From the IMG/VR virus record IMGVR_UViG_3300006056_003026: a DNA stretch of 39,316 bases; one strand, given 5' to 3'. A model generated the notes under the pieces. The model was not told where the DNA came from, did no database searches, and worked only from the letters and a program-made list of their open reading frames with translations. This document shows, piece after piece, positions 27,731 through 38,515 of this stretch; position 1 is the first letter of the stretch, and the number at the start of each line of letters is the position of its first letter. Source of the stretch: a virus. The translations under genes and the position numbers were made by a program.

Positions 27731-28087
27731 CTAACTTGTACCTCTGTCATCGTCCGTCTTGCACAGTGTTGGTGCCTCGCTCGTACATTTCTTATTCGCG
27801 CGCTCGTCCGCTCGCCCGCGGGGGACACGAGCTGTGCGCACGAGGACCTCCCAGTTCGACGCTTCCCAGCACCAGGCAAAGGTCTCAAGGTTATGATCGT
27901 AGATCATTGCAAACCTCTCCTTGCGATGCTTCAGACGGAACACGCCGATGACCGTGAGTATGTTCTCAGGTTTGTGTTCGCGCCTGTTGCTAGTGAACAC
28001 CGTACCCTTTTCATGCGCATCAAGATCGATGTGATCCCATGTCAAAACGCCGTAACGGTGCTTCACTATCATCCCAGGAATCAACAC
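27731..28087 (-). CDS. PGD-motif small beta-barrel family paralog (array member 1, subgroup a)
   Basis: 'MLIPGMIVKHRYGVLTW...ILTVIGVFRL'. Confidence 0.55.
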   Translation of the reverse strand: MLIPGMIVKHRYGVLTWDHIDLDAHEKGTVFTSNRREHKPENILTVIGVFRLKHRKERFAMIYDHNLETFAWCWEASNWEVLVRTARVPRGRADERANKKCTSEAPTLCKTDDDRGTS

Positions 28088-28347
28088 GGTTCAGCTAATA
28101 CCTTTGCGATAAAAGGCTGTGCCCATGTCCAACGAAGCGATCGATCGGCGTGATCGTAAACGAACATCACGCTAGCGTTCTTCCTCGTAAGTTGAACTAC
28201 ACCGATGATAGTCACGACATGGTTGCGACTCATGATATGAGCGTTTCTTCCAAGAAATGGCTCTGAGCTCGAGACGTCAACCTCGCTCCAGGCAAACATG
28301 CCGTTTTCAAAAACGACGATCATTCCAGGCTTAAACTGCACGTTCAC
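28081..28347 (-). CDS. PGD-motif family paralog (array, subgroup a)
   Basis: 'FKPGMIVVFENGMFAW...VVTIIGVVQL'. Overlaps its neighbours. Confidence 0.55.
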   Translation of the reverse strand: MNVQFKPGMIVVFENGMFAWSEVDVSSSEPFLGRNAHIMSRNHVVTIIGVVQLTRKNASVMFVYDHADRSLRWTWAQPFIAKVLAEPC

Positions 28348-28625
28348 ACCTTCATCAGGACCAACAACGATAGCCTACCGAGCTTTTCGTTGCTTGGATC
28401 CCAAACGATCGCGTCGTCCCTGGGATTATCGTCGCTAAACTTGGACCTTCGCACAATGCTGATGATCGTGAAGACTGCACCCGAACCAGTCATCAGCATG
28501 GGCTCCTTGAACGTGAAATCGTGCGATGGATCGAGGAGCAACGACATCCACAGCGTTCCCAGTTCCACAGAAACTGCAAGATCGCCTGGTCTTAGCTTGC
28601 ACTCGAACGAGACGCTTTTCCTCAC
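28344..28625 (-). CDS. PGD-motif family paralog (array, subgroup a)
   Basis: 'LRPGDLAVSVELGTLW...VFTIISIV'. Confidence 0.55.
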   Translation of the reverse strand: MRKSVSFECKLRPGDLAVSVELGTLWMSLLLDPSHDFTFKEPMLMTGSGAVFTIISIVRRSKFSDDNPRDDAIVWDPSNEKLGRLSLLVLMKV

Positions 28626-28822
28626 GGAATCACCACCTGTTCCATGATCGAGTCAGACCTCACGGTGATGATCCCCTTGTGACTGAGCATCATCACCCTG
28701 TACAACGTGGAGTTCCTGTGAGGAAGCAGTGCCACACCGATGATCGTGTACAGATCCTTGTCGGTCTCATTGACGCCATGAAGCAACGCAACGGAGCCGA
28801 CCCTCAGATCTCGTTGCCTCAT
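28622..28822 (-). CDS. PGD-family paralog (truncated or divergent)
   Basis: 'VGSVALLHGV...LYTIIGVALL'. Confidence 0.45.
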   Translation of the reverse strand: MRQRDLRVGSVALLHGVNETDKDLYTIIGVALLPHRNSTLYRVMMLSHKGIITVRSDSIMEQVVIP

Positions 28823-29049
28823 GCCAGGAACTCCATGATCCGGCCGTCAACGTAGATCATGTACCAGTCGCGGCAGACAGGATGTTGAGGTCCTATGCAC
28901 CTTCCCAGGACGATGTGCACGATCTTTCCCTTGAAGTGCACGACGTTGCGGATGCCTCCCTGCATGACGAACGCGGTGTCGACCATGAATGCATCACCAG
29001 GAACCAGCTCGTTCCAGTGGATGCTGCCAGCCCTGTACGTTCGTACCAC
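28819..29049 (-). CDS. PGD-motif family paralog
   Basis: 'LVPGDAFMVDTAFV'. Confidence 0.5.
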   Translation of the reverse strand: MVRTYRAGSIHWNELVPGDAFMVDTAFVMQGGIRNVVHFKGKIVHIVLGRCIGPQHPVCRDWYMIYVDGRIMEFLA

Positions 29050-36164: not shown

Positions 36165-36796
36165 GTTCCCCTGACCCGACCGATGCCCATGGAAACGGAG
36201 AACGATGGGTGATTGACGGTGCAGATGAACGCATCCATCCAGGAGACCTGGACCTCTGACATCCCATCGGGGAAGATCATCATGAGGTCACGAACGCTGT
36301 CATGGCTCATCGTCGGCCTGATCCCGATCGCCTCGTCGATCATCCACACGACGTAGCAGATGACCTGGTTTGCGTTGCTCGGCCTGAGCTCGATGCACCA
36401 TGGCGCTCGACGTGAAGTCGGAGGGCTATCGTCCGTGGACTTCCGGTGGGATGCGGATGCAGACCTGAAGAATGTCGACCGCCCGTTGAAGGTGGGGATG
36501 ACGTTGCGATCCCGACGATCCTCGAGCCTGATCAGCCAGTAGCAGCCCTCAACAGTCCTGATGACCGTGCCTCCCATAATCACGACGACCTCAGCGATGG
36601 TCAGCTTGGTCGGGCCGTCGATGACCTTCCCATGACCGTTGGTCGTCGTCACGATGAATGAGGAACCGTTAGGAAGCTGGGCAAGCTCCTGCAGGTTCAA
36701 GGGCTCGAGGTCCTTGGAATCGGTGCTGATAACCTCGCGGGGGATGCTGCTCATGCTTCGAACATACCACTGTAAGAGCAGACCATTCACATCCAT
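36161..36796 (-). CDS. B-type hypothetical protein (cassette copy 1, gene B)
   Basis: 'WYVRSMSS...LEPLNLQEL...PTSRRAPWCIELRPSNAN'. Paralog of 37847..38515. Confidence 0.5.
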   Translation of the reverse strand: MDVNGLLLQWYVRSMSSIPREVISTDSKDLEPLNLQELAQLPNGSSFIVTTTNGHGKVIDGPTKLTIAEVVVIMGGTVIRTVEGCYWLIRLEDRRDRNVIPTFNGRSTFFRSASASHRKSTDDSPPTSRRAPWCIELRPSNANQVICYVVWMIDEAIGIRPTMSHDSVRDLMMIFPDGMSEVQVSWMDAFICTVNHPSFSVSMGIGRVRGT

Positions 36797-37551
36797 GGAC
36801 GATCGATGACAACGACCTCGCGGTCGATATCGATGATCGATCCCGTTTCATCAAGGATCCTGCACGATGTCAGGTCGCATGTCAGGACCGTGAAGGGCAC
36901 CCATGTCCTAACCCATCTGCCATCACGTGTGATCTTCGCTGTCTCAGCAACCTCATCAACGATGATCATCACCGTACCTGGACCCCCGCCTGGAGCTGAT
37001 GCGGCTAGGACGATCGCCTCGTCGAACTCGAGCATGCTCGGGCGGGAGACAAACCTGATCCCGGTGATCGGATCGTCCAGGTAGGAGAAACCCTTGGGAA
37101 CATCATCATGAACGGGTGCCAGCATCTTGAGCCACGGGATATCCCTATGTGAGGAGAACATGATCTGCCTCAACCTGGACATGTCCCTCGACCCGTCGCT
37201 GCAATCGTTGAACGTGATCAACGTCAGCATTCCGCCGGACGGCGAGCCACCCAACACGCTACGACGGTTGATGTGAGCGATGCTGTAGGACTCGCACCAT
37301 GCATGCGAACCTGGACCGGTGTTCCATGATGTTCCGCTGATCCACTCGAGGAACCTCCCATCGATAGCCTTGGATCCGGAGAGCATCCTGTCAGCAAGGA
37401 CCTCCCGCATACCTGGTTCATCCCGTGCCTCCATCAACGATGAACCTCCGATCGCTGCAACCGTCGTCGGTGACATGCTGATGCTCATCCGCACCGAACG
37501 AACGGGAACGACCATCAGGTGCTCCCATCCTGACCGAGCACGTACGACCAT
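36787..37551 (-). CDS. A-type paralog (cassette copy 2, gene A)
   Basis: 'DRMLSGSKAIDGRFLEWISGTSWN...PGGGPGTVMIIVD...WVPFTVL'. Confidence 0.55.
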   Translation of the reverse strand: MVVRARSGWEHLMVVPVRSVRMSISMSPTTVAAIGGSSLMEARDEPGMREVLADRMLSGSKAIDGRFLEWISGTSWNTGPGSHAWCESYSIAHINRRSVLGGSPSGGMLTLITFNDCSDGSRDMSRLRQIMFSSHRDIPWLKMLAPVHDDVPKGFSYLDDPITGIRFVSRPSMLEFDEAIVLAASAPGGGPGTVMIIVDEVAETAKITRDGRWVRTWVPFTVLTCDLTSCRILDETGSIIDIDREVVVIDRPWM

Positions 37552-37850
37552 GATTCGGTGACAAGCGATGGATCAGCACGGGACGTGATCCGAAGCCTCG
37601 AGCTGATCTCATCCCGGGTCAGGCCACATCGACCATGAAGGTCGCTGAATGCTTCCTCGAGGAACGACGATCCGTAACCAAGGGTACCGTCAAGCTCGAC
37701 CTCGACCGTGTCACCGAACCGGGAGCTAGCAAGTGCGGGTGCAAGGACATCATCCCTGAAAGCTTCCCCAGAGAAATCCCCGTCTGACCTGAACCTCCCA
37801 GACGGAAAGCGGGAGAAATCAATCGCAACCCTGATCAGGTGGATGCTCAC
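37515..37850 (-). CDS. STAS-like (DUF4325-like) small protein, tentative
   Basis: 'VEVELDGTLGYGSSFLEEAFSDL' resembles the STAS-like 'LDFxGV..xxSSFxDE' core. Inserted between A and B of cassette copy 2. Confidence 0.35.
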   Translation of the reverse strand: MSIHLIRVAIDFSRFPSGRFRSDGDFSGEAFRDDVLAPALASSRFGDTVEVELDGTLGYGSSFLEEAFSDLHGRCGLTRDEISSRLRITSRADPSLVTESWSYVLGQDGST

Positions 37851-38515
37851 GAGCCGGGTGTCCTCTCCGTGCTAGAGATCCAATCGTCGATGACCTTGGT
37901 CTGGATCACGGTCATACGATCCGGGAACAGGTAGAGGAAGCCACGGGAGTTATCGAACTCATAGTCGAACTTGAACCCGTAGCTCTCCTTGAAGGCGCGC
38001 TGAAAGTCCCCGATCGCCCCGAGCGGGTTCGCTGTGGACCTGAGATCCACGACCCAAGGCTTTCGTCGGGAAGTGGGTTCCGAACCCGGGGAAACGACGG
38101 GAGGCAACCTGAAGAAGTGCTCCGTACCGTAGGGAACGTCCAGCGTGTTCCTGCCCATGTTCCCAACGTTGCCCCTGATCGTCCAGAAGGATCCGTCAGC
38201 AGCCTCGATGATCACGTACGAGTACCGATCGCCAAGGACCCGTCGCTTCATGCGGATCGTCCTCTCGGATCGATCGTAGAACTCCCGGGTGTCCCCCGGC
38301 TCAGGGGCAGACTGCTGCAACCTCGAGATGAAGCTGTCACCCTCGTTCATAAGGATCAGCTCGGACAGGGGAAGGGGTTCGAGCTGCTGGTTATGGTTGG
38401 GACGATCGCTGCTCATGCTCAATTGATACCACGTGAGCCAGCAAGCATGCACAGCGTAACATGGTGGTGATCGTGCTCGATGGTGCACGACAATCATTGT
38501 GCACGTGGTGCACAA
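37847..38515 (-). CDS. B-type hypothetical protein (cassette copy 2, gene B)
   Basis: 'WYQLSMSS...LEPLPLSEL...PTSRRKPWVVDLRSTAN'. Confidence 0.5.
   Translation of the reverse strand: MCTTCTMIVVHHRARSPPCYAVHACWLTWYQLSMSSDRPNHNQQLEPLPLSELILMNEGDSFISRLQQSAPEPGDTREFYDRSERTIRMKRRVLGDRYSYVIIEAADGSFWTIRGNVGNMGRNTLDVPYGTEHFFRLPPVVSPGSEPTSRRKPWVVDLRSTANPLGAIGDFQRAFKESYGFKFDYEFDNSRGFLYLFPDRMTVIQTKVIDDWISSTERTPGS

What the first reader, a model, noticed from the sequence alone, without database searches (positions are those of the whole stretch)
27731..38515. 10.8-kb same-strand tandem array of at least 24 paralogs of one small beta-barrel-like family immediately upstream of MVP
Every gene from 27731 to 38515 is on the MVP strand and nearly all are coupled by 1-4-nt overlaps. 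Almost all carry an N-proximal 'PGD[IL][IVM]' (or 'PGT') strand motif followed by a second hydrophobic strand (for example '...IGVxxL', 'VPxxVI' or 'hVhW'). The pattern is KOW/SH3-like. Further members occur in a second operon and elsewhere, for more than 30 copies in 39 kb. A lineage-specific expansion of this size, placed next to a cage-forming protein, suggests several roles. The members could be a cargo or adaptor repertoire for the vault-like shell. They could be a variable virion or host-interaction family. They could be a defence or counter-defence family under diversifying selection. I do not recognise the family.
Basis: partly seen in the sequence, partly recalled or inferred. Interest (0 to 1): 0.85.

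Follow-up and report, generated by a model that had tools for sequence, protein, structure and literature searches.

The report
Orphan small-barrel gene array in huge phage
A huge-phage genome fragment carries about twenty tandem, co-oriented copies of a previously undescribed small protein family, probably SH3-like beta-barrels, that gains and loses copies by recombination between copies; its position next to the vault-protein gene looks like inherited gene order, and I found no functional link.

Summary
Positions 27731-38515 hold 24 same-strand, mostly overlapping genes directly upstream of a genuine MVP homolog. Twenty of them carry an N-proximal PG[D/T] strand motif, against 1.6 expected by shuffling.

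It is not "at least 24 paralogs of one family". Four genes belong elsewhere: a Cys-rich ORF, two "family B" genes and a DUF4325/STAS-like gene. Sequence statistics prove only sub-families:
- a long/short "family A" of 8 window genes
- a network of 10-11 small genes that remains significant with the PGD strand removed
- a separate family in the second operon

Orthologs in a sister phage (MVP 98% identical) are under purifying selection (omega 0.02-0.46). Gene content nevertheless differs by at least 13 genes, including a 6.5-kb deletion whose junction lies inside the conserved TFVP(I/F)TV motif.

The family accompanies MVP only in the GC-rich clade, not in 13 other MVP phage loci. Best reading: a lineage-specific multigene family of small-barrel binding modules. 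Its function is unknown.

The parts
27731..28087 (-). Small PGM-motif member (118 aa), sub-family D
   Evidence: phmmer E=5.7e-10 to 28081-28347. Held-out test with the PGD strand removed: 1 of 1000 shuffles score as high. An ortholog is present but uncalled in L009.
28081..28347 (-). Small member (88 aa), sub-family D. The allele is replaced in the sister phage.
   Evidence: 0 of 1000 shuffles. Only 37% aa identity to L009 13671-13964, although the flanks are 85-96% nt identical.
28344..28625 (-). Small PGD member (93 aa)
   Evidence: Held-out test without the PGD strand: 0 of 1000 shuffles. dN/dS 0.14.
28622..28822 (-). Smallest putative member (66 aa, VGS in place of PGD)
   Evidence: Motif and collinear alignment only. 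Held-out p is about 0.07 without the first strand. dN/dS 0.28.
28819..29049 (-). Small PGD member (76 aa)
   Evidence: Held-out test 6 of 1000. 97% identical ortholog, dN/dS 0.02.
29082..29360 (-). Small PGE member (92 aa). This is the true gene; the overlapping ORF 29059-29379 is spurious.
   Evidence: Frame comparison. Held-out test 27 of 1000. dN/dS 0.08.
29381..29722 (-). Putative PGD member (113 aa)
   Evidence: Motif only. Held-out p is about 0.08. dN/dS 0.08.
29707..29886 (-). Cys-rich 59-aa ORF, not a family member
   Evidence: No motif. hhalign links it to two other Cys-rich ORFs in the window, 9715-9969 and 16103-16333.
29883..30206 (-). Small PGD member (107 aa) that bridges the small genes to family A
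   Evidence: HMMER E=1.5e-4 to the family-A C-terminal profile with 0 decoys. hhalign E=2e-11.
30203..30640 (-). PGD member (145 aa) with an N-terminal extension
   Evidence: Held-out test 1 of 1000. dN/dS 0.13.
30645..30992 (-). PGD member (115 aa)
   Evidence: hhalign E=2-4e-4 to the family D and family A profiles over 42-51 columns. Held-out test 6 of 1000.
31022..31351 (-). PGD member (109 aa)
   Evidence: hhalign E=7e-4 to family A over 47 columns. Held-out test 4 of 1000.
31348..31710 (-). PGD member (120 aa)
   Evidence: Held-out test 0 of 1000. dN/dS 0.12.
31695..32009 (-). PGD member (104 aa). This protein was modelled.
32006..32449 (-). Family A, short form (147 aa)
   Evidence: Iterative HMMER with 0 decoys. 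hhalign E=6e-19.
32446..32886 (-). Family A, short form (146 aa, VGD)
   Evidence: E=3e-14.
32883..33578 (-). Family A (231 aa). A chimera left by a 6.5-kb deletion between two paralogs.
   Evidence: The N-terminal part matches L009 1918-2580 and the C-terminal part matches L009 8513-9124. The junction at 33018-33029 lies in the codons for TFVPITVL.
33575..34369 (-). Family A, long form (264 aa). This protein was modelled.
   Evidence: phmmer 5.9e-17 to 34369-35466. In the AF2 model the C-terminal 115 aa have pLDDT 65-90 and the N-terminal part is below 50. No significant fold match.
34369..35466 (-). Family A, long form (365 aa)
35454..36164 (-). Family A (236 aa). Absent at this position in the sister phage.
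   Evidence: phmmer 6.6e-34 to 36787-37515. L011 has B-STAS-B followed directly by the ortholog of 34369.
36161..36796 (-). Family B gene (211 aa), not a PGD member
   Evidence: phmmer 1.1e-14 to 37847-38515. No motif. No Pfam hit.
36787..37515 (-). Family A (242 aa from the ATG at 37515). Absent at this position in the sister phage.
37515..37850 (-). DUF4325 (STAS-like) gene, not a family member
   Evidence: Pfam PF14213, E=4.4e-12, 46 bits against a cut-off of 23.
37847..38515 (-). Family B gene. The real start is probably at 38416.
   Evidence: Ortholog L011 6557-7144 starts at the equivalent Met.
38417..38856 (-). Conserved non-coding spacer with a sigma-70-like site. It is the probable start of the transcription unit that runs through the array.
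   Evidence: 84% identity to L011 with no 3-nt periodicity, stops in all frames in L011 and a 23-nt indel. TCGACA-16-TACGAT at 38713..38686 lies in an invariant block.
38857..39291 (-). PGD-motif gene (144 aa) upstream of the spacer. The array continues beyond the window.
   Evidence: Motif. Ortholog L011 5530-6078 is preceded by three more PGD genes.
24934..27621 (-). Major vault protein homolog (895 aa), 109 nt downstream of the array
   Evidence: MVP_shoulder 3.6e-28 and Vault_3 3.8e-7. 98% identical in L009, dN/dS 0.07.
20543..22832 (-). Six family-C genes in the second operon (PG..., G.hhG, V.VLW). This is a separate family.
   Evidence: Iterative HMMER gives 13 members with 0 decoys, including 4-5 genes in L001. 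No hhalign link to families A or D below E=0.05.
13967..14260 (+). Dispersed sub-family D paralog on the other strand
   Evidence: phmmer 3.5e-5 to 28081-28347. hhalign 3e-30 to the family D profile.

Best explanation
The interval is a lineage-specific multigene family in a huge, MVP-encoding phage. The family was built by repeated tandem duplication and is still being remodelled by recombination between copies.

What each member looks like:
- A compact beta module of about 70-90 aa. It starts with a PG(D/T)-hhhh strand, continues through a paralog-specific insert of 10-60 aa, then has an 'hhTVhuh' strand and a C-terminal hairpin.
- The module most probably folds as an SH3/Tudor/KOW-type small barrel.
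- The 'long' members (231-365 aa) add a helix and a beta-rich N-terminal region.
- No conserved polar or catalytic residues exist beyond P-G-(D). The module is therefore a scaffold, and each paralog's insert is the likely specificity element (inferred).

How it is expressed (inferred): the genes are translationally coupled and probably transcribed from the conserved spacer at 38417-38856. Transcription may continue into MVP.

How it evolves (shown): every copy is individually kept by purifying selection. Copies are nevertheless gained, lost, fused and swapped between near-identical phages.

Likely role (inferred): a repertoire of small binding proteins, that is, accessory or host-interaction factors. 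I do not think they are enzymes, and I see no evidence that they are dedicated partners of MVP.

My confidence by step:
- a real paralog array that evolves by recombination between copies: about 0.9
- small-barrel fold: about 0.55
- binder-repertoire function: about 0.35
For: Motif and paralogy:
- The motif is strongly enriched.
- Family A has 25 members across the window and L009 with 0 of about 1600 decoys.
- With the PGD strand removed, 11 of 22 held-out modules still score at p<0.05 against their own shuffles. Fisher combined p is 2e-15.
- Collinear hhalign links of 40-84 columns connect 30645, 31022, 28344 and 29082 with families A and D.

Coding status:
- Ortholog dN/dS is 0.02-0.46 for every pair with a defined ratio.
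- Inserts are as conserved as cores between orthologs.

Remodelling:
- Window 33018-33029 joins L009 2478 to 8978 inside the TFVPITVL codons, removing a 6.5-kb stretch that holds 10 whole genes and parts of the two fused ones.
- 35454 and 36787 are extra relative to L011.
- The 28081 allele is replaced.

Fold:

Orphan status:
-.

Coupling:
-.
Against: - Family A, held out as a group, does not score against the small genes once the PGD strand is removed (p 0.08-0.78). The A-to-small link therefore rests on the first strand, on bridging members (29883, 32006, 32446) and on the model.
- Three putative members (28622, 29381, 38857) are supported by the motif only.
- Nothing measured here bears on what the proteins bind.
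Confidence: 0.55

Rival explanations
1. Vault cargo or adaptor repertoire. The small barrels dock onto or into a shell built by the phage MVP and deliver different cargos or contacts.
For: - The array ends 109 nt upstream of MVP on the same strand with no terminator-like site between them.
- PGD-type genes lie on the MVP strand near MVP in all four GC-rich relatives: L009/L011, L001 and L014.
Against: - In 13 other MVP phage loci (MVP 36-44% identical) no same-strand motif ORF and no profile hit is found.
- In L014 two unrelated genes separate the array from MVP.
- Copy number ranges from about 3 to more than 30 for nearly the same MVP.
- MVP is 98% identical between the two sister phages while array content differs by at least 13 genes.
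- No resemblance to the PARP4 MINT/INT vault-targeting domain was found, but this was not specifically tested.
Confidence: 0.12
2. Counter-defence or host-takeover gene island. Each paralog neutralises or hijacks a different host factor, and copy number turns over in an arms race, as in poxvirus gene accordions or the ASFV multigene families.
For: - Gene content differs strongly between phages with 98% identical MVP.
- A single-gene allele is replaced and dS is mosaic, from 0.14 to above 2.
- The proteins are small orphans and the operon is long.
Against: - No sign of positive selection at gene level (omega at most 0.46). Loops are not hypervariable between orthologs.
- No PADLOC or known anti-defence hit.
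- This rival overlaps with the best explanation. It differs only in naming the targets.
Confidence: 0.2
3. Virion or assembly proteins, for example internal head proteins, decoration proteins or a hetero-oligomeric structural set made in fixed stoichiometry by translational coupling.
For: - Tight coupling of the genes.
- A family-C gene in the downstream operon (21327-21749) carries a 42-aa match to the T4-type major capsid protein, E=1.4e-7.
- Small-barrel proteins commonly oligomerise (general knowledge of Sm/Hfq proteins).
Against: - No PHROG structural family hit for any array member.
- Structural sets rarely differ by more than 10 genes between near-identical phages.
- pI values are scattered from 4.6 to 9.5.
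Confidence: 0.1
4. Not one family. Several unrelated small-ORF families share a convergent 'PGD + hydrophobic strand' start, which is common to many beta proteins.
For: - HMMER alone joins only sub-groups.
- Family C and family A/D show no profile-profile link.
- Family A against the small genes is not significant without the PGD strand.
Against: - Collinear second and third motifs are present. Held-out significance remains without the PGD strand for the small genes.
- Bridging members exist.
- In the combined-profile search, 13 sequences that are not orthologs of any profile member, among them three L001 genes, two family-C genes and 7634-8098, rank ahead of the first decoy at a decoy ratio of 10:1. 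In one search, 11 sequences do so.
- Tandem, same-strand arrangement with recombination at the shared motif.
Confidence: 0.1

Closest known systems
SH3-like small beta-barrel superfold (SH3, Tudor, KOW, EF-P domain I, PWWP)
   Same: - Predicted five-strand all-beta core of about 50 residues.
- A 'G-D-x-V'-like first strand, as in KOW.
- A long variable insert after the first core strand. I take this to be where the SH3 RT loop sits, which is my inference from general SH3 topology, not something I tested.
   Different: - No Pfam SH3, KOW, Tudor or LSM profile is matched by any of 41 proteins.
- No conserved aromatic cage or KOW glycine pattern. Only one Gly is invariant.
- The insert is far longer than in canonical domains.
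- Long members add a helix and an N-terminal beta region of unknown fold.
Tandem multigene families of large DNA viruses (ASFV MGF110/360/505, poxvirus gene 'accordions', giant-virus paralog blocks). Comparison from general knowledge.
   Same: - Same-strand tandem paralogs.
- Large copy-number differences between close relatives.
- Gain and loss by recombination between copies.
- Accessory rather than core genes.
   Different: - The host is prokaryotic and the element is a phage.
- The proteins are much smaller.
- No evidence of positive selection or of an immune-evasion role here.
Phage host-takeover or early-gene modules made of many small ORFs (for example the Bacillus phage SPO1 host-takeover module). 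Comparison from general knowledge.
   Same: A long co-oriented run of small, overlapping orphan genes behind a promoter region.
   Different: Those modules are made of mostly unrelated genes. Here most genes are paralogs of one scaffold.
Viral major vault proteins (bioRxiv 10.1101/2023.11.10.566534)
   Same: The neighbouring gene 24934-27621 is a phage MVP, like those reported from human-gut phages.
   Different: - That preprint checked the flanking genes only for gene order and describes no paralog array.
- The gut-type MVP phage loci fetched here lack the family.

Membership tests
Tandem paralogous multigene family | Members are homologous beyond chance | tested here: met
   - Family A: 25 members, 0 decoys.
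- Small genes: 11 of 22 held-out tests at p<0.05 without the PGD strand, Fisher combined p 2e-15.
- Three members are supported by the motif only.
Tandem paralogous multigene family | Head-to-tail arrangement on one strand, with copy number changed by recombination between copies | tested here: met
   -.
- The 6.5-kb deletion junction lies inside the shared TFVPITVL codons.
- Extra family-A genes relative to L011.
KOW domain (Pfam PF00467) | Match to the KOW sequence profile or glycine-rich motif | tested here: not met
   No KOW hit at E<=1 in any of 41 proteins.
SH3-like small beta-barrel fold | Five-strand barrel that superposes on SH3, Tudor or KOW structures | tested here: inconclusive
   - The model for 31695-32009 has pLDDT 60.
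- The family-A model gives no significant hit.
Tudor / PWWP (Royal family) | Conserved aromatic cage | tested here: not met
   No conserved aromatic column in the 22-module alignment. Only one Gly is invariant.
Sm/Hfq-like | N-terminal helix plus a bent five-strand sheet, with Sm1/Sm2 motifs | tested here: inconclusive
   The family-A model has a helix at 175-187 before the PG strand. No LSM or Hfq Pfam hit.
Vault cargo (PARP4 INT/MINT-type MVP-binding domain) | Physical binding to MVP | not testable with these tools
   No multimer prediction tool was available.
Vault cargo (PARP4 INT/MINT-type MVP-binding domain) | Co-occurrence with MVP across MVP-encoding elements | tested here: not met
   Present only in the GC-rich clade (L001, L009/L011, L014). 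Zero same-strand motif ORFs and zero profile hits in 13 other MVP loci.
Arms-race (diversifying) counter-defence family | dN/dS above 1, or hypervariable surface loops between orthologs | tested here: not met
   Omega is 0.02-0.46. Loop identity 0.71 against core identity 0.73. Site-level tests are impossible with only two genomes.
Arms-race (diversifying) counter-defence family | Rapid gene-content turnover between close relatives | tested here: met
Known anti-phage defence or anti-defence proteins | Match to PADLOC models | tested here: not met
   Best E=0.012, a single chance-level hit.
Major vault protein (the neighbouring gene) | MVP shoulder domain plus vault repeats | tested here: met
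   PF11978 at 3.6e-28 and PF17795 at 3.8e-7.

The most novel reading that the evidence does not exclude
The array is a phage-encoded combinatorial library of small-barrel binders. One conserved scaffold carries paralog-specific loops. Each copy is tuned to a different host or defence target, or loads a different cargo into a phage-built vault-like MVP shell. The repertoire is reshuffled between phages by recombination at the scaffold's conserved motif.
Probability: 0.15. Interest if true: 0.8.

Novelty: new member of a known kind. Interest (0 to 1): 0.45.

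Why it matters
Large tandem expansions of a single orphan protein family are well documented in big eukaryotic DNA viruses. To my knowledge, and in one literature search that returned nothing relevant, they are rarely described in phages.

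This array gives three things:
- A clean, datable example of expansion and contraction. The deletion junction lies inside a conserved motif, and the two phages compared have 98% identical MVP.
- A compact scaffold with paralog-specific inserts, which could be a natural binder repertoire.
- A set of more than 20 co-expressed unknowns beside a phage vault protein, whose own role is unknown.

If even a few members prove to target host factors or the MVP shell, the locus would become a useful entry point into huge-phage biology. As it stands, it is an orphan family with a probable common fold and no assigned function.

Tried and rejected
- Pfam, PHROGs, NCBIfam and PADLOC on 41 candidate proteins gave no shared family. 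The only single hits were DUF4325 and Gp23.
- Pfam on 10 distant members from L014 gave nothing.
- PDB sequence profiles A5 and A3 gave a best E of 1.6-1.8.
- The word-indexed searches of the 5.8e9-protein database returned only the query itself and sister-phage orthologs. The profile query was largely wasted.
- The exhaustive HMMER search of 1.84e9 representatives gave 20 hits. All belong to this lineage except two low-complexity repeat proteins, which I judge spurious.
- The afdb50 fold library was unavailable.
- Promoter and terminator scans inside the array were near background. Only the site at 38713 is conserved.
- Rfam and tRNA scans of the window found nothing.
- I rejected ORF 38494-38841 as a gene. 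It is not conserved as an ORF and shows no codon periodicity.
- I rejected 29059-29379 in favour of 29082-29360.
- The first all-against-all hhalign run timed out and was rerun in parallel.
- The enrichment of hhalign hits among motif-bearing proteins is partly circular, because many alignments are just the 10-15-column motif. I therefore relied on the held-out test with the motif strand removed.

Full report
SETTING

The window looks like part of a huge phage.
- The 895-aa protein at 24934-27621(-) matches MVP_shoulder (E=3.6e-28) and vault repeats.
- In the GenBank phage collection it hits only three uncultured megaphage records of 462-735 kb.
- The plus-strand half of the window encodes GroEL, TANGO2, an ADP-ribosylglycohydrolase and an AAA ATPase.
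- Related MVP loci come from IMG/VR viral contigs of up to 369 kb.
- Phage MVPs have been reported before (bioRxiv 10.1101/2023.11.10.566534). That preprint checked only the order of flanking genes and describes no paralog array.

THE OBSERVATION

An uninterrupted minus-strand gene chain runs from 39291 to 19133. Within 27731-38515 there are 24 genes.
- 19 of the 23 junctions overlap, 13 of them by exactly 1 or 4 nt.
- I corrected one gene call. 29082-29360 carries the family motif. The longer Arg-rich ORF 29059-29379 is an off-frame artefact.
- I corrected three starts: 32449, 37515 and probably 38416.

The motif is real.
- Strict PGD[h][h] occurs in 9 of 25 genes against 0.19 expected, with at most 3 in 2000 shuffles.
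- A looser pattern occurs in 20 of 25 genes against 1.55 expected.
- There are no strict motifs in the antisense frames.
- Anchoring the proteins on PG shows a collinear architecture: PG(D/T)-hhhh, then a variable insert of 10-60 aa, then 'hhTVhuh', then a C-terminal hairpin that often ends in G.h.Whh or ILTxDGRIhEh.

Four genes in the interval are not members:
- a Cys-rich 59-aa ORF (29707-29886)
- two 'family B' genes (36161-36796 and 37847-38515)
- a DUF4325/STAS-like gene (37515-37850, E=4.4e-12)

IS IT ONE FAMILY?

Within the window alone, phmmer and iterative HMMER with 10x shuffled decoys join only small groups. A close relative supplied more sequences.
- The protein of 31695-32009 has an 89% identical homolog on a 247-kb Logan contig.
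- The loci from that contig, L009 and L011, are syntenic with the window.
- Adding their genes, family A grows to 25 members with no decoys. It includes window genes 29883, 32006, 32446, 32883, 33575, 34369, 35454 and 36787.

For the other small genes I held each one out, rebuilt the profile from the rest, and scored it against 1000 of its own shuffles.
- Because the members were chosen by the PGD motif, I repeated the test with that strand deleted.
- 11 of 22 still reach p<0.05. Fisher combined p is 2e-15.
- The small genes 27731, 28081, 28344, 28819, 29082, 30203, 30645, 31022, 31348 and 31695, plus the dispersed paralog 13967-14260(+), therefore form a real but very divergent family.
- Family A, held out as a block, is not significant without the first strand. 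The link between family A and the small genes rests on three things: bridging members (29883 at HMMER E=1.5e-4 and hhalign 2e-11), collinear hhalign matches of 42-51 columns at E=2-7e-4, and the shared predicted core.
- Three genes (28622, 29381, 38857) are supported by the motif only.
- The six 'PG...G.hhG...V.VLW' genes of the second operon (20543-22832) form their own family C, with homologs in L001. They show no profile link to families A or D.

WHAT IS IT RELATED TO?

Nothing known, at the sequence level.
- None of 41 proteins shares any Pfam, PHROG, NCBIfam or PADLOC family.
- PDB sequence profiles give a best E of 1.6-1.8.
- Three searches of the 5.8e9-protein collection return only the query itself and the sister phage.
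- An exhaustive HMMER search of 1.84e9 representatives with a 22-module profile returns 20 proteins at E<=1e-3. All are from this lineage except two low-complexity repeat proteins.

At the fold level the evidence is weak but points one way.
- AlphaFold2 on 31695-32009 with an alignment of 18 window paralogs gives an all-beta model. Mean pLDDT is 60 and pTM 0.53. The conserved strands are at 72-80 and the insert is below 50.
Sequence membership in the KOW, SH3 and Tudor families was tested and not met.

HOW IT EVOLVES

The sister phage has a 98% identical MVP (dN/dS 0.07).
- The array orthologs range from 37% to 97% identity. All have dN/dS 0.02-0.46, so they are real genes under purifying selection.
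- The paralog-specific inserts are as conserved between orthologs as the cores (0.71 against 0.73 identity). This argues against ongoing diversifying selection and for paralog-specific function.

Gene content is nevertheless very fluid.
- L009 has a further 6.5 kb between the orthologs of 32883 and 32446. It holds 10 whole genes, nine of them joined to family A by iterative HMMER, plus parts of the two genes that are fused in the window.
- The window's junction, at 33018-33029, lies in the codons for TFVPITVL, which is the family's most conserved motif and a DNA repeat shared by paralogs.
- Window gene 32883-33578 is a chimera of L009 1918-2580 (N-terminal part) and L009 8513-9124 (C-terminal part). 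A single deletion by unequal recombination between paralogs is the simplest account.
- Conversely, the window has two family-A genes (36787 and 35454) interleaved in a B-STAS-B block that lacks them in L011.
- 28081-28347 is replaced by a 37% identical allele between well-conserved flanks.
- dS varies from 0.14 (MVP) to above 2, which indicates mosaic exchange.
- In L011 the array continues upstream of the window's end with three more PGD genes.

RELATION TO MVP

PGD-type genes lie on the MVP strand near MVP in all GC-rich relatives.
- L009/L011: MVP 98% identical, 10 strict-motif ORFs in each of these two overlapping loci.
- L014: MVP 68% identical, at least 9 tandem small genes at 4298-7188, separated from MVP by two other genes.
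- L001: MVP 62% identical, a few genes.
- Opposite-strand ORFs in the same loci give 0-1.
- These distant members are only twilight-zone hits individually. Even so, 11 sequences, among them members from L014 and L001, rank ahead of the first decoy at a decoy ratio of 10:1.

In 13 other MVP phage loci (MVP 36-44% identical) there is no same-strand motif ORF and no profile hit. The neighbourhood therefore looks like clade-level synteny rather than an obligate partnership. A physical interaction with MVP could not be tested.

MECHANISM

Shown:
- a tandem paralog array
- purifying selection on each copy
- remodelling by recombination between copies
- orphan status

Inferred:
- a small-barrel scaffold with a paralog-specific insert as the specificity element
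- no catalytic residues (only P-G-(D) and hydrophobic positions are conserved)
- coupled expression from the conserved non-coding spacer at 38417-38856, which contains an invariant TCGACA-16-TACGAT site

I therefore favour a repertoire of small binding or adaptor proteins with accessory, host-interaction roles (about 0.35). The rivals are counter-defence in the strict arms-race sense (0.2), MVP cargo or adaptors (0.12), virion or assembly components (0.1) and non-homologous convergence (0.1).

VERDICT

The locus is a genuine, statistically supported, undescribed multigene family in a huge phage, with a well-resolved expansion and contraction mechanism. The claimed size and unity are overstated. 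The fold assignment is tentative. The proposed links to MVP and to diversifying selection are not supported. Interest is moderate (0.45): a new orphan family of a known evolutionary kind, with no function assigned.

Noticed in passing
window 21327-21749 (-): This 140-aa family-C protein ends with a 42-aa stretch (residues 90-131, '...QQLVSIQPMSMPSGLVFYMDHTYG...') that matches positions 7-48 of the Pfam Gp23 (T4-type major capsid protein) profile at E=1.4e-7. The sister-phage ortholog is flagged the same way. It is a small barrel fused to a capsid-protein fragment. It could be a capsid-interacting protein, a decoy or a gene remnant.
   Followed up: partly
window 38417-38856: A non-coding spacer of about 440 nt sits inside the array. 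It is 84% identical to L011 6078-6557 with long invariant blocks, shows no codon periodicity (42/39/39), has stops in all frames in L011 and has a 23-nt indel. It contains an invariant sigma-70-like TCGACA-16-TACGAT site at 38713..38686(-). RNA folding gives z=-1.87, which is weak. ORF 38494-38841 is therefore spurious.
   Followed up: partly
window 37515-37850 (-), with 36161-36796 and 37847-38515: A DUF4325 (STAS-like) gene (E=4.4e-12) lies between two paralogous 'family B' genes of unknown function. The B-STAS-B block is conserved in the sister phage (L011 6557-8120).
   Followed up: partly
window 28081-28347 compared with L009 13671-13964: A single gene has been replaced by a different allele. 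Amino-acid identity is 37%, while flanking DNA is 85-96% identical. There is no DNA-level alignment across the gene itself.
   Followed up: yes
L009 13968-14327 (+): The public gene call in the sister contig misses the ortholog of window 27731-28087 and instead calls a 139-aa antisense ORF (L009 14006-14425).
   Followed up: yes
window 29707-29886 (-), 9715-9969 (+), 16103-16333 (+): Three small Cys-rich (zinc-ribbon-like) ORFs resemble one another in hhalign (E=5.5e-5 and 8e-4).
   Followed up: no
window 24934-27621 compared with the flanks: MVP has a much lower synonymous divergence from the sister phage (dS 0.14) than nearly all neighbouring genes (0.4 to above 2). This could reflect recent exchange of the MVP segment or strong codon constraint.
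   Followed up: no
window 8106-9023 (+), 2404-2940 (+): The window encodes an ADP-ribosylglycohydrolase (E=6.4e-33) and a NUDIX-like protein (my reading of the GGKV..E..REL.EETG motif). A 2026 preprint reports ADP-ribose bound in the shoulder of eukaryotic vaults (10.64898/2026.05.01.722283). A link to the phage MVP is speculative.
   Followed up: no
L014 2283-2909 and L011 2387-3229: A conserved 208-280-aa protein with a 'GDRIVV...RGTPWL' barrel-like core and a very basic Lys/Arg-rich C-terminal tail lies upstream of the PGD gene arrays in two relatives. The equivalent region is beyond the window's end.
   Followed up: no
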